This document shows, piece after piece, positions 1-13,477 of a stretch of DNA of 20,000 bases (positions are counted from its first letter, which is position 1; every line of letters starts with the position of its first letter). Location: the IMG/VR virus record IMGVR_UViG_3300044715_001089, one strand, 5' to 3'. The notes below the pieces were generated by a model. The model ran no database searches, was not told the origin of the DNA, and saw only the letters and a program-made list of their open reading frames with translations. The translations under genes were made by a program, and so were the position numbers. This stretch comes from an uncultured virus (IMG/VR IMGVR_UViG_3300044715_001089). Its lineage: Duplodnaviria; Heunggongvirae; Uroviricota; Caudoviricetes.

Positions 1-160
1 TATTGGCTTCAGGGGATTTAGGTTGAGCAAAGAACCAATTGCTATTGACTTCCTTAGAAGAGCAAGAAGCTTTGTGTCTCCAACCATTTTCATTAGCAGA
101 AATAATATTAAAGTCATCTAGCTTTTTAGAGCCTTTTGGTTTTCTACTAGTTTTTTTCAA
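1..160 (-). CDS. whiB: WhiB-family Fe-S transcription regulator, N-terminal part (runs off the window)
   Basis: Not in the ORF track. My translation from TTG at 160, with GGAG SD upstream, is MKKTSRKPKGSKKLDDFNIISANENGWRHKASCSSKEVNSNWFFAQPKSPEAN. W-R-x-x-A-x-C...(W)FF matches the WhiB N-terminal motif; the remaining Cys residues would lie outside the window. Confidence 0.75.
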   Translation of the reverse strand, partial: MKKTSRKPKGSKKLDDFNIISANENGWRHKASCSSKEVNSNWFFAQPKSPEAN

Positions 161-431
161 CAACTTCTCCAGATTTGATTAACTCAATTGATTGATTGAT
201 TTTTTTGTTTAATGATTCAAGGATTGCACTAGTTTCTTGTAGCGCATCCAATGTTGATTTGGAATCTTTACTTTGCATATACTCAACAACAGAAGAAAGA
301 TTTATGAGAACTTGTTTGGGCATCCAAATAATTTCTTTGAATAAAGAATAGATATCGTTATAATTATTCAGTATAACATCATGTTCATTGATGACTGAAT
401 TAATTATATCATCTAATTGTTCGGATTCCAT
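147..431 (-). CDS. hypothetical protein (helical)
   Basis: 94-aa ORF with ATG and AAAGG SD; overlaps the start of the whiB-like ORF. Confidence 0.7.
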   Translation of the reverse strand: MESEQLDDIINSVINEHDVILNNYNDIYSLFKEIIWMPKQVLINLSSVVEYMQSKDSKSTLDALQETSAILESLNKKINQSIELIKSGEVVEKN

Positions 432-449
432 AAGAACCTTTCGGTAAAG

Positions 450-526
450 TGCGGGTGACGGGATTTGAACCCGCGTGCCACCAACTACCCTTTCTACACT
501 TTATAAGAGTGAGGGGATACACCCGC
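450..526 (-). ncRNA. non-canonical tRNA-like RNA, anticodon TAT (Ile-like), rearranged D-arm
   Basis: Acceptor stem GCGGGTG/CACCCGC plus discriminator A; T-arm GCGGG-TTCAAAT-CCCGT; hairpin CACT-CTTATAA-AGTG; D-loop-like TAGTTGGT lies 3' of the anticodon arm. Confidence 0.75.
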
Positions 527-569
527 TTGATAAGCTGGGGTAGTATCGGTGGTTATTCGAAAGTCTAAT

Positions 570-857
570 TTAAATGATAGATGCTTTGTCATTGTATCTC
601 GGTAATGGTTGTTGTGCGGTTATAAAACAAAGAGCCTCTTTACCTCGTGGAGTAATAGTATACTGTTTGTTTTTGCAAATAGCAAATTGCTGATCAATTA
701 AATTGTTAAGCAAATCCTGAACATCATAAGAAGAATCAAACTTATTAGGATTAAATGTATAAATATCTTTTTGAGTTGAAGGTCTAGAATTTTTCATCTT
801 TAAATATTTTAATACTAGATGAATGCTAGAATCTCTTTTGATATTAATTATAGTCAT
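570..857 (-). CDS. putative winged-helix DNA-binding protein
   Basis: 95 aa; LLNNLIDQQF...YTITPRGKEAL resembles a wHTH recognition helix, wing and final helix. Confidence 0.55.
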   Translation of the reverse strand: MTIINIKRDSSIHLVLKYLKMKNSRPSTQKDIYTFNPNKFDSSYDVQDLLNNLIDQQFAICKNKQYTITPRGKEALCFITAQQPLPRYNDKASII

Positions 858-1101
858 CGTATTCTTCTTCTTCCTTAGGCATAAAAGATTTTCTGGTATA
901 GAATCGTTGTCTTAACCATGGATTAAACCTATGGTAAAGTCCACCCATAGTATTTTTATAAAGAACAAGTGCATCAATATGATCTGACTCACTGAGCTTT
1001 TTATAATATACTTCAAGAACTTTCATTCTCATACTCAAAGGAGGATGTTTAATGCTCTGCTTGTTTTGAAATGACATATTAGCAAATCCTAAATCCGCCA
1101 C
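844..1101 (-). CDS. hypothetical protein
   Basis: 85-aa ORF overlapping both neighbours; start uncertain. Confidence 0.55.
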   Translation of the reverse strand: MADLGFANMSFQNKQSIKHPPLSMRMKVLEVYYKKLSESDHIDALVLYKNTMGGLYHRFNPWLRQRFYTRKSFMPKEEEEYDDYN

Positions 1102-1561
1102 AATTTTGCAAGAATAGTTGGAACTCTACGAGAAGATCATAATCCATATGGTAATGAGTAGCAAAGTTAGCTACTTTTAAAGTACCTTGGCAAGAGTTAC
1201 ATTGTTTAGTAACACTCTGTTCTTGACCATTAGCATCTGCTTCTTTCCAAACACGAACACCTAAGCCTTCACAATACTTGCAATCATCCAATGGAAGAGA
1301 ATCCATGTGGGCTTTGTATTGTTCAATATATGCTTTTATAGTTCCATCTTCTAAATCTTTTTTTAAAAGTTTAGCAAGAGTTATAGAGTCTTTAGCACTT
1401 AAACCTGCGCCAGAATTATCATGGGGGCTTTCGCACTTAGAACAAATAGTAGGGTGGAGTTGGTCTAAACAATCCCACATAGGATGCCAGTACCATACGT
1501 TGGCACGAAAGTATTCACCAAGTTCGTTCTTTGGCTTATTGCCATAGACGTCCATACCCAT
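1079..1561 (-). CDS. phage protein with DnaJ-type zinc-finger motifs
   Basis: CKYCEGLG and CNSCQGT (CxxCxGxG-like) motifs; AGGAG SD. Confidence 0.75.
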   Translation of the reverse strand: MGMDVYGNKPKNELGEYFRANVWYWHPMWDCLDQLHPTICSKCESPHDNSGAGLSAKDSITLAKLLKKDLEDGTIKAYIEQYKAHMDSLPLDDCKYCEGLGVRVWKEADANGQEQSVTKQCNSCQGTLKVANFATHYHMDYDLLVEFQLFLQNCGGFRIC

Positions 1562-1576
1562 TTGGGTTCTCCTTAA

Positions 1577-1840
1577 TTAGGCGGTGTAAACATCACCGTT
1601 TTGTTGTATCTTTGCATCTTCATAAGGTGCTGCAATTCTACGATAAAGTTCAAGTTTTGCGCATTCTAATACGCCAATAGCTTCATTGATACTAGAATAG
1701 TTTTTACCATGACTTGAAATATAATGATCAACTATCTTGGTAATGAAATAGTTTAACTCACCTGGAGTTTGTATTGCATTATTTTTAAAAGAAATCTTTT
1801 CATCAAAAAAGCTTCTATCAGATTGTTCAATATATGGCAT
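1577..1840 (-). CDS. conserved phage protein, DUF6899-like
   Basis: Pattern MPYI...GELNY...[10 protein letters not shown]...PYEDAKI..NGDV recognised from memory. Confidence 0.7.
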
Positions 1841-2037
1841 TAGTTACCTTCTTGAAATGCGGACCAAACATCTACCTCATCGAGTGATAGATCTTCAGGT
1901 TTGATTTTTAATAAGAGTCTATTCTTAAGACTAACTACTCTAGTAGGATGTTTTTCAAAACCATTATTAACTAAGTAGTTCTGTAAAGCGTCGACAAGAA
2001 GATCTACATCTTCACGGTTTAAATTATATCTTGGCAT
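1840..2037 (-). CDS. hypothetical protein (65 aa, MPRYNL...)
   Basis: Start moved to ATG 2037, which has an AGGA SD; TAATG coupling to the downstream gene. Confidence 0.65.
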
Positions 2038-2038
2038 A

Positions 2039-2194
2039 TTAGTCTTCCTGTTTGGGATAATACCAATTATCAGTAGGGGCGTATGCAATTCGAGAAGCAA
2101 CATAAAATATAAGTATTGCTGCAAACTGCATAACTATAGACTCGGTTAATCCAATATAGAATAACCAAATATAGGTGAATAAAAGATTTATCAT
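2039..2194 (-). CDS. small hydrophobic/membrane protein (51 aa)
   Basis: MINLLFTYIWLFYIGL...; ATG lies 2 nt after the tRNA 3' end. The longer ORF-track start falls inside the tRNA. Confidence 0.45.
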   Translation of the reverse strand: MINLLFTYIWLFYIGLTESIVMQFAAILIFYVASRIAYAPTDNWYYPKQED

Positions 2195-2196
2195 AG

Positions 2197-2270
2197 TGGG
2201 CCTTCCCGGACTCGAACCGAGGACCAAGGCGTTATGAGCACCCTGCTCTAACCAACTGAGCTAAAGGCCC
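2197..2270 (-). tRNA. tRNA-Ile2 (CAT, lysidine type); elongator Met not excluded
   Basis: GGGCCTT/AAGGCCC acceptor, TAGCTCAGTTGGTTAGAGCA D-arm, GGGTG-CTCATAA-CGCCT anticodon arm, GGTTCGAGTCC T-arm; CCA not encoded. Confidence 0.9.
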
Positions 2271-2271
2271 G

Positions 2272-2386
2272 TAGGACAGTTGTGACCACCTTATCTGGGG
2301 AGAAAGGTGGATTGGTATATTCACTTTGTGGACGGGCCAGTCGTAAACGAGTGGGGATCCGTAACAATGGGGACTGTAAGCTCCCG
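2272..2386. ncRNA. candidate structured RNA just 5' of tRNA-Ile2
   Basis: GC-rich island with CCACCTT/AAGGTGG hairpin, ACGG..CCA.TCG/CGA.TGG..CCGT hairpin and closing ACAGTTGT/ACA(bulge)ACTGT stem. Confidence 0.4.
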
Positions 2387-2406
2387 AAATAAAATGCCTA
2401 GAGCAA

Positions 2407-2607
2407 TTAAACTCTTCCGGCAGTTACAAAATAACTACGAACTTCTGCAGTTAGAAACATAAGAGAAGGTTGATCGTACTTATCGTACTCAACTTCTGTC
2501 TCTAGTCTATCCCGAAGTTCTTCTGTAATCAGTTGAACTGCATCTGCATCGTCTTGAAATTCACCAGGAATATCCATGGTTATTTCAGCTGTAAATTTAA
2601 TTTTCAT
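2407..2607 (-). CDS. hypothetical acidic protein (66 aa, MKIKFTAE...)
   Basis: ATG 2607 with AAGG SD, directly after the csp stop. Confidence 0.65.
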   Translation of the reverse strand: MKIKFTAEITMDIPGEFQDDADAVQLITEELRDRLETEVEYDKYDQPSLMFLTAEVRSYFVTAGRV

Positions 2608-2617
2608 AACTACCTTA

Positions 2618-2818
2618 TTAGAGTGGGCGGACGTTCTTAGCTTCCATGCCTTTTTGGCCTTGACCAACTTCAAACTCTACTTCTTGACCGGTAGCCAAAG
2701 AACGGCGACCTGTACCTTCGATGTTTGAGAAGTGAACGAATAAATCGTCACCGTTTTCACGTGAAATAAAGCCGAAGCCTTTTTCATCATTGAAGAATTT
2801 TACTGTACCTTTGTTCAT
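2618..2818 (-). CDS. cspA: cold-shock protein (CSD)
   Basis: [16 protein letters not shown] (RNP1), DLFVHFS (RNP2), [12 protein letters not shown]. Confidence 0.97.
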
Positions 2819-2851
2819 TATATATCTTTCATTTGTTTCTAATATTTATTA

Positions 2852-2860
2852 AGTATAGCA
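2852..2860 (-). promoter_or_regulatory. extended -10 promoter (TG-C-TATACT) upstream of csp
   Basis: TGCTATACT about 34 nt upstream of the ATG; the same pattern occurs upstream of the rpf leader. Confidence 0.5.
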
Positions 2861-2870
2861 TAGATTAGAT

Positions 2871-3026
2871 CTACTGGGGGACTGGCTCTTCTTGAGCCAG
2901 AAGATAAAGCCTAATATCAAGAAGAAGATCAGTCATTTCATTGGTGGAAACAAGATCTCTACCTGATATATCTTTAATAGCTTTATCTATGAGATTAGTT
3001 GCTAGTTGTTTAGGAGTTGCTTCCAT
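2871..3026 (-). CDS. hypothetical protein (51 aa, MEATPKQLATNLIDKAIKDISGRDLVSTNEMTDLLLDIRL...)
   Basis: Below the ORF-track cutoff; GAGGG SD; open frame translated by hand. Confidence 0.65.
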   Translation of the reverse strand: MEATPKQLATNLIDKAIKDISGRDLVSTNEMTDLLLDIRLYLLAQEEPVPQ

Positions 3027-3086
3027 TGTGTTTACCCTCTAACTTTTGGATTTGTATTGTATATAGTACAGACACATCTTTAATAG

Positions 3087-3159
3087 TGCGCCCTCCGGGG
3101 TTCGAACCCGGGACACATGGATTAAAAGTCCACTGCTCTACCAACTGAGCTAAAGGCGC
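3087..3159 (-). tRNA. tRNA-Lys (TTT)
   Basis: GCGCCTT/AGGGCGC acceptor, GTGGA-CTTTTAA-TCCAT anticodon arm, GGTTCGAACC T-arm; no CCA. Confidence 0.95.
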
Positions 3160-3284
3160 TTGTTTTCAGTTGCTTTGCGAGCAGATTCAATCATCTCTTT
3201 AATTTCTTTATCTTCTTCATGGAACCCAATAAAAGTTAAGATGCCCCACAAAGAACCAATAGCAATGATTACATAAGCTATCAT
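3150..3284 (-). CDS. small single-TM protein (44 aa, MIAYVIIAIGSLWGILTFIGF...)
   Basis: TAATG coupling with the upstream gene; stop codon lies in the first 10 nt of tRNA-Lys. Confidence 0.5.
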   Translation of the reverse strand: MIAYVIIAIGSLWGILTFIGFHEEDKEIKEMIESARKATENKRL

Positions 3285-3472
3285 TATAAGTATGGTTGAT
3301 TCTTAGATGTAAGGTTTTTAAAATTCTTACGCTTTTTTATCTTATAGCCATTAGCTTTAAGTTCATCAACTATCTGTTCTGGTATACCATACCAAACAGT
3401 AATGCCATTACGAGTTAAAACATGAGCAATAATGTCTAGCTTATCTTTAACATGCATTTTAATGTAAGTCAT
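3284..3472 (-). CDS. hypothetical basic protein
   Basis: 62 aa, AAGGA SD, ATGA overlap with the upstream ORF. Confidence 0.65.
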   Translation of the reverse strand: MTYIKMHVKDKLDIIAHVLTRNGITVWYGIPEQIVDELKANGYKIKKRKNFKNLTSKNQPYL

Positions 3473-3603
3473 TCGTAATATCCTTGATTTCTAGTGGGAA
3501 CTCCATAAGGAGTCTGATGCATTTTATTGTATGATTTATGACGTTGTCTAGCTGTTCGTTTAAAACGAATACGGATAATAAGTTGTTTAATAGAATGAAT
3601 CAT
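3469..3603 (-). CDS. small basic protein (44 aa, MIHSIKQLIIRIRFKRTARQRH...)
   Basis: Translated by hand; AAGGA SD; ATGA coupling. Confidence 0.55.
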   Translation of the reverse strand: MIHSIKQLIIRIRFKRTARQRHKSYNKMHQTPYGVPTRNQGYYE

Positions 3604-6185: not shown

Positions 6186-6214
6186 TTTTTTCCTTATTAT
6201 AGTGTATTGCATAG

Positions 6215-6298
6215 TACCCGAGACCGGACTTGAACCGGTAAGAGGTTGCCCTCCGGGGGGTTTAAGCCCCCTGCGTCTGCCTATTCCGCCACTCGGGC
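6215..6298 (-). tRNA. tRNA-Leu (TAA)
   Basis: GCCCGAG/CTCGGGT acceptor, GGGGG-CTTAAAC-CCCCC anticodon arm, long variable arm GAGG-GCAA-CCTC, GGTTCAAGTCC T-arm; no CCA. Confidence 0.95.
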
Positions 6299-8719: not shown

Positions 8720-10399
8720 CTACCAACGTTTTTTAGATTCAATCTTATTTTGAAGCCATTTAGGCTTAGGATTGTTTTCGTAATACTTAGATATGATTTG
8801 AGAAGCCATACCTTTAGTCATGTCAGCAGTAAGGGGTATACCTAAACGCTTTAACATTTTCTTTTGAGGATCAGTAGGTCCATCAGTTCTCCATTGAGCA
8901 GAAGAATCGATTAGAACTAAAGATGCTGCACGATTCTCTTGAATCCATTTGTCAGTGCCGGAAAATACTGATCTAAGATTATCAGCTCTACCAATAATCT
9001 TAACTGAAGTTTTATCATTATCTTTATAATGAAGCTCAGTATTCCAACGACCCAAAGCATCTAATGTTATATGCATGGACTCATTATTATTAAGACCTAG
9101 GTGGTAAGAGTTTTCACCGATCTCTGCCCATACATACTTAGAGTATTCTAAGATAGCAGGGTTTGGTGGTGGTGGCATAAACAAGTTAATGCGTTTGTAT
9201 GCACCTTGAATATCATCTGGATTAAGTACACGAATAGCTTCACCAGGACAATAGTCTTCTAGCTCTTCATACTTCTTAGCGACGTCTGTTAGGCTCTGTC
9301 CTTGTAAATCGAACTCTGGTGGCATTCCCAAAAGAGTAGGAAGGCCAATAGGCTTCTTCCCCCTCGTGGTGTCTGCAATATCGATAATCGTACAATGTTC
9401 TTTGCCTTCGAATAGACGGGTACCTCGACCAACAATCTGAGTATACAGAAGTGTTGATCTGGTTGGTTTAGCTAAGATAATTGTTTCCAATGAGGGTTCA
9501 TCAAAACCTTCGGTGAGAACACCTACATTGACAATTACTTTAAGTTTATTCGTAGAAAAATCCTGAAGGATCTTTTGACGTTCTTCGTGAGGAGTTGTCC
9601 CCACGATTACTTCGCATTCTACCGACGCTTGTCGAAAGGATAAGGCCAGGTTTTCGGCGTGTCGAACGCCGGATGCGAATACAATGGCTTTCGTAGCCAT
9701 TGCCAAATTGCGATAGGTAGCGACAACAAAAGCGTTGCGCTCAGGAGTATCCACTTTTTCTTCGAGTTGATCTTGAGCATATTCACCGTTTCTAATTTCG
9801 ACATCTGATATGTCTACATTTGTTTTAACTCTATATCCGATGAGGGGACTAAGCCAGCCATCTTCAATGAGATCTTGTATTGATTTATAGTAAACTATCT
9901 CATCGAAAACATCAATGAGTCTAACCGAATCCGACCTTTGCGGCGTTGCCGTAACTCCCAACAGAAAAGGAGGATTAAAGTAATCAACAATTCTTCTGTA
10001 AGAAGGAGCAGCAGCATGGTGGGCTTCGTCAATAACGATAGACTTAAAATAGTCATTAGGATATCCTTCAATACGGGGTGTGCCACTACGACCTAAGGTA
10101 GCTACAGAAGCTACCACTACGTCTACATGGCCAGCTTTACGATCAGCTTGCTCTATCTCTACAGTAAGTGTAGGGTTAGATGCCATGATCTTATTGCGGG
10201 CCTGCTCTAATAGCTCTGCACGATGTGCAAGAACGAGCATAGGTAGAGTGTTCTTGCGAATAACTGGTAGATGAGAAAACAAAACTGTTTTACCGGCACC
10301 AGTAGGGAGTACTACAAGTTGTTTACTAATTCCTTTTCCTTCATGGAATAGGATAGCATCAAGAGCTTCTTGCTGGTAGGGTCTAAGGGTAACGGTCAT
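8720..10399 (-). CDS. superfamily 2 DEAH helicase (Irc3/RadD-like)
   Basis: LRPYQ, LPTGAGKT, DEAHH, TAT, LTEGFD and QIVGRGTR motifs; C-terminal AQWR...T..Q segment. Confidence 0.93.
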   Translation of the reverse strand: MTVTLRPYQQEALDAILFHEGKGISKQLVVLPTGAGKTVLFSHLPVIRKNTLPMLVLAHRAELLEQARNKIMASNPTLTVEIEQADRKAGHVDVVVASVATLGRSGTPRIEGYPNDYFKSIVIDEAHHAAAPSYRRIVDYFNPPFLLGVTATPQRSDSVRLIDVFDEIVYYKSIQDLIEDGWLSPLIGYRVKTNVDISDVEIRNGEYAQDQLEEKVDTPERNAFVVATYRNLAMATKAIVFASGVRHAENLALSFRQASVECEVIVGTTPHEERQKILQDFSTNKLKVIVNVGVLTEGFDEPSLETIILAKPTRSTLLYTQIVGRGTRLFEGKEHCTIIDIADTTRGKKPIGLPTLLGMPPEFDLQGQSLTDVAKKYEELEDYCPGEAIRVLNPDDIQGAYKRINLFMPPPPNPAILEYSKYVWAEIGENSYHLGLNNNESMHITLDALGRWNTELHYKDNDKTSVKIIGRADNLRSVFSGTDKWIQENRAASLVLIDSSAQWRTDGPTDPQKKMLKRLGIPLTADMTKGMASQIISKYYENNPKPKWLQNKIESKKRW

Positions 10400-10487
10400 G
10401 TTTAAATTCCTTAAAAGAATTTGTTAGAATAATGGACAATAATTCTAATTGTAAAGTAGATTACCAAACAAGTTGGAATAATCATAA

Positions 10488-12721: not shown

Positions 12722-13477
12722 TCAATAAGGATTATTAGGTGGGGCAATGTAACTAGAATTTTTGAATGAAGATGATGGCTCTTGTCCAATAACTTCTATG
12801 TATCGGATCTGATGCCAGTGAGACAAGAAGATCTTAGTTGCATAGCGTCGAGCTTGAGCTTCTAGCCTGGAGTCTTCTGTGTCAGCACCTGAATCATCTC
12901 GTTGTTTGATTCTACGGTCAAGCTCTTTAGTATAGAGTTGACCGTAAAAGGAATCAGGAACAGTAGCAAAAGATTTGCCGATCTTCCAAGTAAGATTCTT
13001 TAAGAATGGGTTCCAAGATCCTGGTTGAGCAGTACTTGGATTAAGACCACAATAGCTCCATAAGTTATTAAAGTTAGGAGCTTTGTGAATATCTATCGTA
13101 GACAACAACGCAGCAGAGGCAGCTTGTCCGATACCAGGCTGTTGTAAAGCCCAGGTACCAGTCACAGTGGAGTGGTTATAGTCACTAAAGATGGGAGTAG
13201 TAGAATTCTCTAATCCTCTTAGATAATGAGAATATGATTTAAAAACAGATGAGTTCTTAGAATCATTGAGATCTAGCAACGAGATCCGTGTGTCTTCTAT
13301 GTCATAATAGAAAGATACAAGGTTTTCCATTTCTGTAGTATCAAAACCACGAGAAATAAAATTAAATTTGCGTGACATTATAGACACAACATCTACGCTC
13401 ATAAGGGTGTCTGATTCAATATCTAATTGGGCTAGATCTTGATTGTGAACATGGTCATAGTTAATTTGATTATTCAT
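12722..13477 (-). CDS. IS110-related Nop-domain protein lacking RuvC (TasA-like)
   Basis: PGIGQAASAALLSTIDI...LWSYCGLNP...WNPFLK.L.WKIGKSF...YG.LY...ARRYATKIFL matches the Transposase_20/Nop fold; no N-terminal DEDD domain. Confidence 0.7.
   Translation of the reverse strand: MNNQINYDHVHNQDLAQLDIESDTLMSVDVVSIMSRKFNFISRGFDTTEMENLVSFYYDIEDTRISLLDLNDSKNSSVFKSYSHYLRGLENSTTPIFSDYNHSTVTGTWALQQPGIGQAASAALLSTIDIHKAPNFNNLWSYCGLNPSTAQPGSWNPFLKNLTWKIGKSFATVPDSFYGQLYTKELDRRIKQRDDSGADTEDSRLEAQARRYATKIFLSHWHQIRYIEVIGQEPSSSFKNSSYIAPPNNPY

What the first reader, a model, noticed from the sequence alone, without database searches (positions are those of the whole stretch)
450..526. tRNA-like RNA with a topologically permuted D-arm and UAU anticodon
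Seen on the minus strand: GCGGGTG-TA-TC-CCCT-[CACT-CTTATAA-AGTG]-TAGAA-AGGG-TAGTTGGT-GGCAC-[GCGGG-TTCAAAT-CCCGT]-CACCCGC-A. The acceptor stem, U8-A9, T-arm, 7-nt anticodon loop (C32, U33, A37, A38) and A73 are all canonical, but no D-hairpin precedes the anticodon arm. Instead CCCT (515-512) can pair with AGGG (491-488) around the anticodon hairpin. A D-loop copy (AGTTGGT, the same as in the neighbouring Ile2 and Lys tRNAs) then follows where the variable loop should be. Inference: the D-stem strands are swapped in order, which could preserve the L-shape and the D-loop GG/T-loop contact. It may be a rewired tRNA reading AUA without lysidine, or a decoy for anticodon nucleases or synthetases. 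The intact helices argue against simple decay.
Basis: partly seen in the sequence, partly recalled or inferred. Interest (0 to 1): 0.85.

Follow-up and report, generated by a model that had tools for sequence, protein, structure and literature searches.

The report
Naturally permuted isoleucine tRNA in phage
A 77-base phage gene looks like a working isoleucine tRNA whose inner segments are joined in a different order from the textbook cloverleaf, and the same rewired design recurs in many phages and some bacteria.

Summary
Window 450-526 (-) has a canonical acceptor stem, U8-A9, T-arm, anticodon loop (UAU) and A73. It has no D hairpin before the anticodon arm, and a D-loop-like AGTTGGT follows it. 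ARAGORN misses it; Rfam tRNA scores 35.2 bits.

It is not decay. Pattern scans and BLAST found a fixed-length family in viral, metagenome and bacterial contigs and in cultured phages of Streptomyces, Microbacterium and Rhodococcus. The helix around the anticodon hairpin covaries and is paired in 100% of cells.

Moving the segment "D-stem 5' strand + D-loop" back in front of the anticodon arm makes ARAGORN of 193 as canonical tRNAs, against 0 of 193 natively. The Levitt pair 15:48 covaries. Anticodons are only Ile (UAU, GAU, CAU) or Arg. Arg members carry A20 in 21 of 21 cases and Ile members carry U20 and A73.

Best reading: a functional tRNA-Ile(UAU) with a non-circularly permuted core. Charging and decoding are untested. 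Five literature searches found no description.

The parts
520..526 (-). Acceptor stem 5' strand (alignment cols 1-7), GCGGGTG
   Evidence: Pairs with 451-457. All 7 pairs show compensatory changes across homologues. The close relative G002 differs by two double compensatory changes.
518..519 (-). U8-A9 (cols 8-9)
   Evidence: Invariant in set A1, where these positions were not fixed by the search pattern.
514..517 (-). T + CCC (cols 10-13). It sits right after A9 but is the equivalent of D-stem 3' strand positions 22-25.
   Evidence: Cols 11-13 pair with cols 37-39 in 100% of cells. Pair types seen are CG, GC, UA and AU. T10 faces T40 as a conserved U.U, read here as 22.13.
512..513 (-). C14, T15 (position-26 equivalent, and 27 of a conserved U27.U43 mismatch)
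   Evidence: C14 is present in 36 of 36 and T15 in 34 of 36 sequences of A1, where these columns were free of the pattern.
497..511 (-). Anticodon hairpin: 4-bp stem (511-508 / 500-497) and 7-nt loop CTTATAA (507-501), anticodon TAT at 505-503
   Evidence: All 4 stem pairs covary. The loop has C32, U33, A37 and A38. Anticodons in the family are only NAU or Arg.
491..496 (-). T31, A32 (43 and 44 equivalents) and the GAAA linker (494-491), which joins the anticodon-stem 3' strand to the D-stem 5'-strand equivalent
   Evidence: T31 is invariant in A1. GAAA was fixed by most patterns. The divergent Pumpernickel copy, found by BLAST, has GAGAA here. The pairing inside this internal loop is unresolved.
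487..490 (-). GGG + T (cols 37-40): equivalent of D-stem 5' strand positions 10-13
   Evidence: Pairs with 516-514. It is followed directly by A14, as in a canonical D-arm.
478..486 (-). Displaced D-loop AGTTGGTGG (cols 41-49): A14, G15, U16, U17, G18, G19, U20 and two more bases
   Evidence: Col 42 (position 15) covaries with col 52 (position 48): A:T 107, G:C 40, other 15 of 162. Col 47 (position 20) is A in 21 of 21 Arg members and T in 138 of 141 Ile/CAU members.
475..477 (-). CA linker and C48 equivalent (col 52)
   Evidence: Levitt-pair partner of G15. Mutual information ranks 42:52 just behind the helix pairs.
458..474 (-). T-arm: stem 474-470 / 462-458 and loop TTCAAAT (469-463)
   Evidence: Canonical G53:C61, T54, T55, C56 and A58. 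4 of 5 stem pairs covary.
450..457 (-). Acceptor 3' strand (457-451) and discriminator A73 (450). No encoded CCA.
   Evidence: The discriminator is A in 141 of 141 Ile/CAU members. CCA is encoded in 39 of 162 family members but not here.
2196..2270 (-). Canonical tRNA(CAU), context. It has C4-G69 and C5-G68, as in tRNA-Ile2.
   Evidence: ARAGORN and Rfam at 64.1 bits; sequence. The Ile2 criterion is recalled, not tested.
3086..3159 (-). Canonical tRNA-Lys(UUU), context
6214..6298 (-). Canonical tRNA-Leu(UAA), context
   Evidence: 50 bits with RF00005.

Best explanation
Window 450-526 (-) encodes a functional elongator tRNA-Ile(UAU) whose core is a non-circular permutation of the canonical tRNA.

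**Layout.** The normal order is [10-21: D-stem 5' strand + D-loop] then [22-44: D-stem 3' strand, 26, anticodon arm, 44]. Here the two blocks are swapped:
- U8-A9 runs straight into the 22-25 strand, then the anticodon hairpin.
- A GAAA linker follows, then the 10-13 strand and the D-loop (A14 G15 U16 U17 G18 G19 U20).
- A CA linker then leads to C48 and the T-arm.

**Shown.**
- The 3-bp helix that encloses the anticodon hairpin is real.
- The stacked column still has 10 layers (4 D-stem, 26.44, 5 anticodon-stem), counted from the alignment.
- The 15:48 tertiary pair covaries.
- Acceptor stem and T-arm are canonical.

**Inferred.**
- The RNA folds into the usual L-shape. The three new junctions (9 to 22, 44 to 10, 21 to 48) join residues that lie in the same or adjacent layers of the canonical core. 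This rests on the recalled yeast tRNA-Phe tertiary map.
- It is cut out of a polycistronic transcript by RNase P and 3' processing, and it receives CCA.
- Host IleRS charges it through A73, the NAU anticodon, A37/A38 and U20.
- It reads AUA. AUA makes up 22% of Ile codons in this 37.5% GC phage. Reading AUA this way needs no lysidine, unlike the neighbouring tRNA(CAU).
- The design probably arose once, by partial tandem duplication and loss of the outer copies. It then spread among phages and some bacteria and diversified to Ile (UAU, GAU, CAU) and Arg anticodons.
For: **Family and secondary structure**
- There are 36 distinct 77-nt sequences from one viral scan (75 copies). An anticodon-free, D-loop-free pattern on bacterial and metagenome contigs gave 162 more distinct sequences (180 matches, 171 passing the helix filter).
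- On the 150 of these 163 (the window and the 162) that DNA alignment could take, 98.0% of cells are paired, against 61.1% when shuffled. The covariation score is 0.948 against 0.220, with 0 of 500 shuffles reaching it. Helix 11-13:37-39 is 100% paired.
- RNAalifold predicts exactly the same 19 pairs on its own.
- APC-corrected mutual information over 193 sequences ranks 13 helix pairs first. Next come 42:52, 13:37, 56:66, 7:70 and 23:47.

**Re-ordering test**
- ARAGORN of 193 natively and 193 of 193 after the block swap. The calls are Ile-tat 113, Ile-gat 38, cat 21 and Arg 21.
- Controls on the first 36: reversed block 0 of 36, loop-first order 14 of 36.

**Tertiary and identity signals**
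- The 15:48 pair is A:T in 107, G:C in 40 and other in 15 of 162.
- Position 20 is A in 21 of 21 Arg members, and T in 138 and C in 3 of 141 Ile/CAU members.
- The discriminator is A in 141 of 141 Ile/CAU members, and G 15, A 4, T 2 in Arg members.
- These match the bacterial identity sets in Table 1 of PMC9976931 (Arg: A20, C35, U/G36, A/G73; Ile: A73, U20, anticodon, A37, A38).
- CCA is encoded in 39 of 162, against about 1 in 64 expected by chance.

**Genomic role**
- Each of six virus genomes has one strong hit (85.9-97 bits), while canonical tRNAs score 28.4 bits or less.
- G003 has 37 canonical tRNAs but no Ile; its permuted copy is GAU. G004 has Arg ACG, CCU and UCG, and its permuted copy is UCU.
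- G000 and G002 have six A-ending-codon tRNAs plus the permuted UAU, and no canonical Ile(GAU) or Ile(UAU) tRNA.
- 17 of 23 distinct viral loci have canonical tRNAs within 1.5 kb on the same strand.
- In the 4 arrays that also hold a canonical Ile tRNA, its anticodon differs from the permuted one.
- Phage codon use: ATA is 22% of Ile and AGA is 33% of Arg.
Against: - No direct evidence of a mature RNA, aminoacylation or decoding. RNA-library contigs from 90-97% relatives cover 285-664 including the element, but contigs in an RNA library do not prove transcription or processing.
- Streptomyces phage Jay2Jay carries canonical Ile(GAU) and Ile(UAU) as well as a permuted GAU, so there the permuted copy is redundant.
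- The minor E. coli Ile determinants C4-G69, U12-A23 and C29-G41 are absent from the window's copy.
- The anticodon stem has only 4 Watson-Crick pairs plus a conserved U.U.
- The L-shape is inferred. No 3D model was computed.
- Several invariant positions (GAAA, T10, T40, GG, GTTC) were fixed by my search patterns, so their conservation is partly by construction.
- The patterns would miss permuted tRNAs of other amino acids that have different linkers.
- In the Chryseolinea clade the gene lies in an RNA-repair neighbourhood (RtcB, RlaP, Ro60). That could point to a non-decoding role.
Confidence: 0.72

Rival explanations
1. It is a tRNA mimic with a non-decoding role. It could be a decoy or sponge for anticodon nucleases, synthetases or modification enzymes, or a substrate or sensor of an RNA-repair system. 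On this reading it keeps tRNA-like surfaces but is not used on the ribosome.
For: - In three Chryseolinea-clade genomes it sits with a few canonical tRNAs beside RtcB, two RlaP nucleotidyltransferases, Band_7, a WYL regulator and, in G006, a Ro60/TROVE gene.
- In Streptomyces BE phages it lies directly downstream of an RlaP-like gene (23.1 bits against a cut-off of 23).
- It is redundant with canonical Ile tRNAs in Jay2Jay.
- All 5 bacterial carriers tested keep TilS, so none needs it to read AUA.
- Known tRNA mimics with altered topology exist, such as YrlA (10.1101/312249, passages read).
Against: - Identity elements for the cognate synthetase track the anticodon: A20 and G/A73 with Arg, U20 and A73 with Ile. 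That is expected for charging.
- Anticodons are non-redundant with the resident canonical set in 8 of 9 genomes or arrays examined.
- It has a free 7-bp acceptor end, and CCA is encoded in 39 of 162.
- No protein partner recurs in viral flanks: 0 RlaP or RtcB among the 53 ORFs scanned, of 112 found.
- A decoy for one nuclease would not need five Arg and three Ile anticodons.
Confidence: 0.17
2. It is a D-arm-lacking tRNA of the mitochondrial kind. On this reading the CCC/GGG pairing merely lengthens the anticodon arm and the GG-containing stretch is a floppy connector. The molecule works, if at all, as a flexible 'boomerang', not as a rebuilt L-shape.
For: The secondary structure alone (a three-way junction with a long anticodon arm and a 13-nt single strand) fits this. 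Rfam aligns it as a tRNA with the D-arm deleted. D-armless tRNAs are known to function (PMC7609411, passages read).
Against: - The connector has the exact D-loop consensus.
- Its second base covaries with the base before the T-stem, as the 15:48 Levitt pair does: 147 of 162 are A:T or G:C.
- Position 20 carries the ArgRS determinant only in Arg members.
- The block swap restores a full cloverleaf in 193 of 193.
- The number of stacked layers equals the canonical 10, counted from the alignment.
Confidence: 0.08
3. It is a decayed or rearranged tRNA pseudogene, or an assembly artefact, with no function.
For: ARAGORN does not call it. Its Rfam score is low: 35.2 bits here, 29.2-31.7 bits in four other virus genomes, and none of the 3 Chryseolinea-clade copies was listed at the gathering score. 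The single-sequence fold is only z -2.25.
Against: There are hundreds of independent assemblies with fixed length, no indels, 98% paired cells and compensatory changes in 18 of 19 pairs. It is kept in cultured phages of three actinobacterial host genera and in neighbourhoods that share several flanking genes in three bacterial genomes.
Confidence: 0.01

Closest known systems
Canonical bacterial and phage tRNA-Ile(UAU) and tRNA-Ile2(CAU)
   Same: It has a 7-bp acceptor stem, A73, a T-arm, a 7-nt anticodon loop with U33/A37/A38, D-loop sequence AGUUGGU, and the same decoding niche (AUA). Canonical Ile(UAU) genes sit in the same phages (Jay2Jay, Pumpernickel).
   Different: The D-stem 5' strand and D-loop lie after the anticodon arm instead of before it. 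The anticodon stem has 4 bp plus U.U. The variable loop is replaced by two linkers (GAAA and CA). ARAGORN does not detect it.
Non-circular permutations of ribozymes (hairpin/hammerhead variants; PMC10085705)
   Same: The same kind of change: an internal re-ordering of segments that cannot be reached by circular permutation, apparently keeping the 3D positions of conserved elements.
   Different: A different RNA class. In the passages I read, that paper stated that no non-circular permutations were known in natural RNAs, and mentioned tRNA only for circularly permuted genes.
Circularly permuted tRNA genes (Cyanidioschyzon merolae type)
   Same: The gene order of tRNA segments differs from the mature cloverleaf order.
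   Different: In those genes the 3' half precedes the 5' half, and processing through a circular intermediate restores a normal tRNA (as described). Here the acceptor ends are in normal order, and no single cut-and-join could restore the canonical order. The mature RNA must stay permuted.
YrlA (bacterial Y RNA with a tRNA-like domain; 10.1101/312249)
   Same: A tRNA-like L-shape built with altered connectivity, with D/T-loop tertiary contacts kept. It is encoded next to Ro60/RtcB RNA-repair genes, as the Chryseolinea-clade copies are.
   Different: YrlA has a closed loop in place of the acceptor end, no anticodon loop and a Ro60-binding stem. This RNA has a free acceptor end with a discriminator, sometimes an encoded CCA, and a real anticodon loop.
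D-arm-lacking mitochondrial tRNAs (e.g. mt-tRNA-Ser(AGY), nematode mt-tRNAs; PMC7609411)
   Same: No hairpin lies between position 9 and the anticodon stem.
   Different: Those tRNAs lose the D-loop and the G18/G19 elbow contacts. This family keeps the D-stem, the D-loop sequence and 15:48 covariation in a new order.

Membership tests
tRNA (Rfam RF00005 / canonical cloverleaf) | 7-bp acceptor stem with a discriminator base | tested here: met
   526-520 pairs with 457-451, followed by A450. All 7 pairs covary.
tRNA (Rfam RF00005 / canonical cloverleaf) | T-arm: 5-bp stem and a TTCRANY loop | tested here: met
   474-458 reads GCGGG-TTCAAAT-CCCGT.
tRNA (Rfam RF00005 / canonical cloverleaf) | Anticodon arm: 5-bp stem and a 7-nt loop with U33 | tested here: inconclusive
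   The 7-nt loop CTTATAA is present, but the stem has 4 Watson-Crick pairs plus a conserved U.U.
tRNA (Rfam RF00005 / canonical cloverleaf) | D hairpin (stem 10-13/22-25 closing the D-loop) between position 9 and the anticodon arm | tested here: not met
   Rfam aligns 4 nt in place of the 15-nt D-arm. The D-stem strands instead enclose the anticodon hairpin, and the D-loop follows it.
tRNA (Rfam RF00005 / canonical cloverleaf) | Score at or above the family's gathering threshold; call by a tRNA finder | tested here: inconclusive
   Rfam gives 35.2 bits against 29 for the window. Four other virus-genome copies score 29.2-31.7 bits. None of the 3 Chryseolinea-clade copies is listed. ARAGORN of 193.
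tRNA (functional definition) | Aminoacylated and used in decoding on the ribosome | not testable with these tools
   Only indirect evidence: identity elements track the anticodon and anticodons complement the resident tRNA sets.
Bacterial tRNA-Ile identity set (PMC9976931 Table 1) | A73, anticodon N34-A35-U36, A37, A38 | tested here: met
   A450; TAT at 505-503; A502 and A501. A73 is present in 141 of 141 Ile/CAU members.
Bacterial tRNA-Ile identity set (PMC9976931 Table 1) | D-loop determinants G16, U20, U21 | tested here: inconclusive
   The U20 equivalent (T480) is present, and is T in 138 of 141 members. Position 16 is T, not G. The position-21 equivalent is G here.
Bacterial tRNA-Ile identity set (PMC9976931 Table 1) | Minor E. 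coli stem determinants C4-G69, U12-A23, C29-G41 | tested here: not met
   The window has G4-C69, G12:C23 equivalents (G488:C516) and A29-U41 equivalents. These are minor determinants defined in E. coli.
Circularly permuted tRNA gene | The 3' half is encoded upstream of the 5' half, and the termini lie inside the mature sequence | tested here: not met
   The acceptor 5' and 3' strands are at the two ends in normal order. Only internal blocks are exchanged.
Non-circular permutation of a structured RNA | Exchanging two internal blocks restores the standard order of all conserved elements | tested here: met
   The order cols 1-9, 37-49, 10-32, 50-77 gives ARAGORN tRNA calls in 193 of 193, against 0 of 193 natively. 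Controls gave 0 of 36 and 14 of 36.
Non-circular permutation of a structured RNA | The 3D positions of conserved elements are retained | not testable with these tools
   Supported indirectly by 15:48 covariation and an equal number of stacked layers. No RNA 3D tool was available.
YrlA / Y RNA | Closed acceptor-like stem-loop, Ro60-binding stem formed by the 5' and 3' ends, no anticodon loop | tested here: not met
   It has a free acceptor end with a discriminator and a 7-nt anticodon loop. No Y RNA family was hit in Rfam.
D-arm-lacking (mitochondrial-type) tRNA | D-arm replaced by a short connector, with D-loop and elbow contacts lost | tested here: not met
   The D-loop consensus with GG is retained at 486-478, and 15:48 covaries.

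The most novel reading that the evidence does not exclude
This would be the first natural tRNA whose strand topology differs from the cloverleaf while it still folds into the L-shape, is charged and decodes. The reading has four parts:
- It is a non-circularly permuted tRNA core that arose once.
- It is now carried by many phages: crAss-like, Streptomyces, Microbacterium and Rhodococcus phages, and this freshwater phage.
- It is fixed in the chromosome of a Cytophagales clade.
- It has been retargeted between isoleucine and arginine by changing the anticodon, position 20 and the discriminator.

The rewired core may be kept because it escapes host factors that read canonical D-arm connectivity, such as tRNA-targeting nucleases, quality control or modification enzymes. 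Its association with RNA-repair loci hints at a role as a damage-resistant spare tRNA.
Probability: 0.55. Interest if true: 0.95.

Novelty: new variant of a known kind. Interest (0 to 1): 0.9.

Why it matters
The cloverleaf order of tRNA segments is treated as universal outside mitochondria. [quoted passage not shown]

If this family is charged and used, several things follow:
- The L-shape can be built with a different strand path. RNase P, the CCA-adding enzyme, IleRS/ArgRS, EF-Tu and the ribosome would all accept it.
- Standard tRNA finders systematically miss a class of tRNA genes. ARAGORN called 0 of 193. The gene is unannotated in nearly all GenBank phage records listed. Phage and bacterial decoding capacity for AUA, AGA and other codons is therefore under-counted.
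- It would be a natural scaffold for orthogonal tRNA engineering.

It can be tested directly, because cultured carriers exist: Streptomyces BE-cluster phages, Microbacterium phages, and Ohtaekwangia and Chryseolinea strains.

Tried and rejected
- **Close relatives by BLAST.** Megablast of window 1-3500 against GenBank phages found nothing. Blastn found only the canonical tRNAs. The 77-nt element alone was needed to find homologues.
- **Flanking ORFs.** PHROGs and Pfam gave no informative function for 147-431, 570-857 and 844-1101. The ORF 1079-1561 has a weak DnaJ zinc-finger hit below cut-off.
- **Single-sequence fold.** The MFE pairs 8-12 with 37-41. I rejected this because that register fails in homologues; RNAalifold and the pair counts support 11-13:37-39.
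12-15:36-39 is paired in only 85.4% of cells.
- **NAV anticodon pattern.** 4 stretches, 0 true members.
- **Weak R1 hits.** Those in G004 (27.9 bits) and G001 (28.4 bits) are not family members; the second is a canonical tRNA-Tyr.
- **Conserved protein partner.** I scanned 53 of the 112 flank ORFs, dropping the shorter and overlapping ones. Nothing recurs.
- **E. coli genomes.** No match with the Enterobacteriaceae-MAG copy as query.
- **Bacterial relatives.** R1 hit 1 of 151 genomes sampled from G005's order and 2 of 41 from its family. The strict filters lose weak matches, so this means 'not found in those searched'.
- **RNA evidence.** Three freshwater metatranscriptome runs held small shares (0.04-0.06). 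When laid, their contigs, from 90-97% relatives, cover 285-664 including the element. Contigs in RNA libraries cannot show transcription, ends or processing, so this is inconclusive.
- **Earlier findings of this scan.** Nothing by sequence, words or place.
- **Literature.** Five full-text searches and passages of six papers describe no such tRNA. Subscription journals are not covered.
Full report
**1. The observation**

The minus strand of window 450-526 reads GCGGGTG-TA-T-CCC-CT-CACT-CTTATAA-AGTG-TA-GAAA-GGG-T-AGTTGGTGG-CAC-GCGGG-TTCAAAT-CCCGT-CACCCGC-A.
- ARAGORN finds three ordinary tRNAs in the window: CAU at 2196-2270, Lys-UUU at 3086-3159 and Leu-UAA at 6214-6298. It does not find this element, even at relaxed settings on the whole contig.
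- Rfam's tRNA model does match 450-526 end to end, at 35.2 bits (gathering score 29). It does so only by deleting the D-arm (4 nt instead of 15) and inserting 18 nt in the variable region.
- The single-sequence fold is only modestly better than shuffles (-26.5 kcal/mol, z -2.25, 4 of 200 shuffles as good).

So the description is accurate, but on its own it could not tell a rewired tRNA from a broken one.

**2. Source**

The window is part of a 104,067-base IMG/VR virus record, estimated 49% complete and 37.5% GC.
- All listed ORFs of 250 aa or more lie on the minus strand. Several have phage-type functions: helicase, protease, transglycosylase and a transposase-like protein.
- The contig carries six canonical tRNAs: Gly-UCC, Asn-GUU, Arg-UCU, CAU, Lys-UUU and Leu-UAA.
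- A complete 210-kb relative (G002, with direct terminal repeats) has the same six tRNAs plus the same odd element. Its acceptor stem differs from the window's by two double, pair-preserving changes.

**3. A family, not a one-off**

I first searched for a D-loop motif placed abnormally close to a T-arm.
- That pattern gave five homologues among the eight matches with the right 8-nt spacing.
It gave 75 true copies and 36 distinct 77-nt sequences including the window. One further match (L123) was a false positive and I dropped it.
- A third pattern left the anticodon and most of the D-loop free.
- Of the 180 matches the script could score, 171 pass a four-helix filter and 162 are distinct. The 9 failures are mostly acceptor-stem failures. 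Only one, L405, has a mismatch in the enclosing helix.
- BLAST of the 77-mers against GenBank phages found the element in 45 + 45 Streptomyces phage records, with some overlap between the two searches. It also found it in Microbacterium phages A3Wally, Pumpernickel and Magritte, Rhodococcus phage Peregrin, the crAss-like phage cr130_1 and Bajarodcaudo virus 1.
- In the rows listed, the element is unannotated everywhere except in EGole, where it is labelled 'tRNA-Leu', and in Coruscant, where a CDS overlaps it.

**4. Secondary structure**

On the first 36 sequences the structure is acceptor (7 bp), helix cols 11-13:37-39, anticodon stem cols 16-19:27-30 and T-stem (5 bp).
- It is paired in 97.8% of cells. 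The enclosing helix is 100% paired, with compensatory changes at all three pairs.
- On 150 of the 163 sequences from the broader set (the limit of DNA alignment), 98.0% of cells are paired against 61.1% in shuffles. The covariation score is 0.948 against 0.220 (0 of 500 shuffles), and sliding the partners by 1-3 columns drops pairing to 36-45%.
- The pair types in the enclosing helix are 11:39 CG 119, AU 14, UA 14, GC 3; 12:38 CG 71, UA 50, GC 26, AU 2, UG 1; 13:37 CG 123, GC 23, AU 3, UA 1.
- The 100% figure for this larger set is helped by my filter, which required three pairs. Without the filter, 179 of 180 matches have all three.
- RNAalifold, given no structure, returns exactly these 19 pairs.
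- An APC-corrected mutual-information scan of all column pairs over 193 distinct sequences ranks 13 of these pairs first.

In window coordinates the enclosing helix is C516-C514 with G490-G488.

**5. The layout is a block swap of a normal tRNA**

Read against standard numbering, the elements map as follows:

| Alignment columns | Canonical equivalent |
|---|---|
| 8-9 | U8, A9 |
| 10-13 | the 22-25 strand |
| 14 | 26 |
| 15.31 | a conserved U27.U43 |
| 16-19:27-30 | 28-31:39-42 |
| 32 | 44 |
| 33-36 (GAAA) | a new linker |
| 37-40 | the 10-13 strand |
| 41-49 (AGTTGGTNR) | the D-loop, 14-21 |
| 50-51 (CA) | a second linker |
| 52 | position 48 |

The block [10-21] has therefore been moved from before the block [22-44] to after it.
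- I tested this in a script by re-joining alignment columns in the order 1-9, 37-49, 10-32, 50-77 and giving the result to ARAGORN. It called 0 of 36 natively and 36 of 36 after the swap. Two other re-orderings gave 0 of 36 and 14 of 36.
- On all 193 distinct sequences the result is 0 of 193 natively and 193 of 193 after the swap. The calls are Ile-tat 113, Ile-gat 38, cat 21 and Arg 21.
- Counting layers from the alignment, the stacked column has T40.T10, three Watson-Crick pairs, C14 opposite N32, U15.U31 and four Watson-Crick pairs. That makes ten layers. The canonical D-stem (4), 26.44 and anticodon stem (5) also make ten.

The following is inference from the recalled yeast tRNA-Phe tertiary map, not a computation. 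That map includes U8:A14:A21, G15:C48, A9 with 12:23, and 45 with 10:25. On it, the three new junctions (9 to 22, 44 to 10, 21 to 48) join residues in the same or adjacent layers of the core.

**6. Tertiary and identity signals in the displaced D-loop**

In the 162-sequence set, these positions were free of the search pattern.
- The second D-loop base (col 42, position 15) and the base before the T-stem (col 52, position 48) are A:T in 107, G:C in 40 and other in 15. This is the behaviour of the Levitt pair. It is the top-ranked non-helix pair by mutual information.
- The same switch occurs independently in BLAST-found members. Jay2Jay, Bajarodcaudo virus, cr130_1, A3Wally and Pumpernickel have A15/T48. 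Coruscant has G15/C48.
- Anticodons are TAT 91, GAT 33, CAT 17, TCT 9, ACG 4, CCT 4, CCG 3 and TCG 1. No other amino acid appears.
- Position 20 (col 47) is A in 21 of 21 Arg members, and T in 138 and C in 3 of 141 Ile/CAU members.
- The discriminator is A in 141 of 141 Ile/CAU members, and G 15, A 4, T 2 in Arg members.
- Table 1 and the text of PMC9976931, read as passages, give the bacterial identity sets. Arg is A20, C35, U/G36 and A/G73. Ile is A73, U20, the anticodon, A37 and A38, plus minor stem pairs.

The synthetase determinant in the D-loop therefore tracks the anticodon even though the loop sits in a new place. That is hard to explain unless these RNAs are charged.
- CCA follows the discriminator in 39 of 162.
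- Caveat: the patterns fixed C14, T15, C32, U33, A37, T31, GAAA, T40, A41, GG and GTTC. Permuted tRNAs with other linkers, or for other amino acids, could exist and be missed. Pumpernickel's copy (GAGAA linker, 7-nt second linker, 45 bits) shows such divergence.

**7. Genomic role**

A covariance model (R1) finds one strong hit in each of the six virus genomes searched (85.9-97 bits). Canonical tRNAs score 28.4 bits or less.

| Genome | Canonical tRNA set (ARAGORN) | Permuted copy |
|---|---|---|
| G003 | 37 tRNAs, none for Ile | GAU |
| G004 | 34 tRNAs, including Arg ACG, CCU, UCG | Arg UCU |
| G000 (this phage) and G002 | six A-ending-codon tRNAs, no canonical Ile(GAU) or Ile(UAU) tRNA | UAU |
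| Jay2Jay | includes Ile GAU and UAU | GAU (redundant) |

- Among 23 distinct viral loci with 1.5-kb flanks, 17 have canonical tRNAs on the same strand. Some have 8-17 tRNAs in 3 kb, with the element only a few bases from its neighbours.
- In the four arrays that also hold a canonical Ile tRNA, the anticodons differ.
- In this phage ATA is 22% of Ile codons, AGA 33% of Arg, TTA 29% of Leu and GGA 27% of Gly, counted over 31 long minus-strand ORFs. These figures match its tRNA set.
- The neighbouring tRNA(CAU) has C4-G69 and C5-G68, which I recall as the TilS signature of tRNA-Ile2. If so, the phage carries both a lysidine-dependent and a lysidine-independent reader of AUA.

**8. Bacterial copies**

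- In three genomes labelled Chryseolinea and Ohtaekwangia, the permuted Ile(UAU) sits among a few canonical tRNAs. In G005 it starts 4 nt after tRNA-Gln. In G006 and G007 it lies between tRNA-Lys and tRNA-Asn.
- Several flanking genes are shared at 72-80% identity, so it looks chromosomal and inherited.
- Those neighbours are RNA-repair genes: RtcB, two RlaP nucleotidyltransferases, Band_7, a WYL regulator and, in G006, a Ro60/TROVE protein.
- All five bacterial carriers tested keep TilS.
- R1 found the element in 1 of 151 genomes sampled from that order and 2 of 41 from the family, under strict filters. It is therefore confined to a narrow clade among those searched.
- The Achromobacter anxifer copy (Arg CCG) lies in an array where ARAGORN called 31 tRNAs.
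- None of the three Chryseolinea-clade copies was listed at Rfam's gathering score.

**9. Expression**

Three freshwater metatranscriptome runs held small shares of the region. When laid, contigs from 90-97% identical relatives cover 285-664, including the whole element. A separate, deeper contig carries a different family member. Contigs in RNA libraries do not prove transcription, ends or processing, so this remains open.

**10. Comparison with what is known**

Five full-text searches found no description of this layout.
- I read passages of the review of non-canonical tRNAs (PMC7609411, 0 occurrences of 'phage' or 'permut').
- I read passages of the novel-cloverleaf paper (PMC5389517).
- I read passages of the 4-bp anticodon stem survey (PMC13092985).
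- PMC10085705 stated that no non-circular permutations were known in natural RNAs before its ribozyme cases. In the passages I saw, it mentions tRNA only for circularly permuted genes.
- YrlA is the nearest topological relative. It is a circular-permutation-like tRNA mimic beside Ro60/RtcB, but it lacks a free acceptor end and an anticodon loop.

The library does not cover most subscription journals, so an existing description cannot be excluded.

**11. Verdict**

The element is a conserved, structured member of a large family that is best described as a non-circularly permuted tRNA. Here it is tRNA-Ile(UAU).
- I am nearly certain that the topology is real and under selection.
- That it is charged and decodes AUA is the best-supported reading, at about 0.7. 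The support is indirect: identity coupling, complementarity to the resident tRNA sets, canonical acceptor and T domains, and encoded CCA.
- A non-decoding mimic or repair-linked role is the main rival.

Noticed in passing
L487 (G005), L488 (G006), L489 (G007): about 8 kb either side of the permuted tRNA: In the Chryseolinea/Ohtaekwangia genomes the permuted tRNA and a few canonical tRNAs lie inside an RNA-repair neighbourhood. The tRNAs are Cys, Gln, Lys, Asn, Tyr, Arg and Pro. The neighbourhood holds RtcB, two RlaP nucleotidyltransferases, Band_7/SPFH, a WYL-WCX-PhyH protein, an AAA_33 kinase-like protein and, in G006, Ro60/TROVE. Weak extra tRNA-like hits (L489 13387-13458 at 33.7 bits; an ARAGORN 'tRNA-Pro' at L488 13217-13291) might be Y-RNA-like elements.
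   Followed up: partly
L273 1964-2485 (Streptomyces phage Jay2Jay) and L300 961-1482 (Coruscant): The gene immediately upstream of the permuted tRNA in BE-cluster Streptomyces phages is annotated 'nucleotidyltransferase'. Jay2Jay's copy, the only one scanned, hits Pfam RlaP (RNA repair pathway) at 23.1 bits, right at the cut-off of 23. This is a second, independent co-location with RlaP.
   Followed up: partly
L281 1501-1568 (-) = G004:C1:120311-120378: A 68-nt element has a paired acceptor stem, a canonical T-arm and an encoded CCA, but an unrecognisable 36-nt middle. ARAGORN does not call it and R1 gives 27.9 bits. It may be another non-canonical tRNA-like gene in a phage tRNA cluster.
   Followed up: no
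L288 (G004) c[8963,9056]; L491 (Achromobacter anxifer) 9904-9977 and 10333-10406: ARAGORN reports a 94-nt tRNA-Ile(tat) in G004. It also reports 'tRNA-???' calls with 2-nt or 4-nt anticodons in G004 and in the Achromobacter array where it called 31 tRNAs. These are further unusual tRNAs in the same arrays.
   Followed up: no
window 2196-2270 (-): The tRNA(CAU) that ARAGORN calls Met has C4-G69 and C5-G68 and looks like tRNA-Ile2 (a recalled criterion). If so, the phage has two different readers of AUA.
   Followed up: partly
window 1079-1561 (-), 1577-1840 (-), 12722-13477 (-): The neighbouring ORFs are a 160-aa protein with a DnaJ-type CXXCXGXG zinc-finger hit below cut-off, a DUF6899 protein that is also beside the element in G002, and a transposase-like protein matching PHROG 4285.
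   Followed up: no
window 480-520, run X1 record 2: A 206-nt metatranscriptome contig at depth 5.67 matches only the central 41 nt. It continues into a different acceptor stem and T-arm, so a second family member is present in that RNA library.
   Followed up: no
L179 2281-2778 (+) in G003: An ORF with an RF-1/PCRF (peptide chain release factor) domain lies 0.7 kb downstream of the permuted tRNA, inside the phage tRNA cluster.
   Followed up: no
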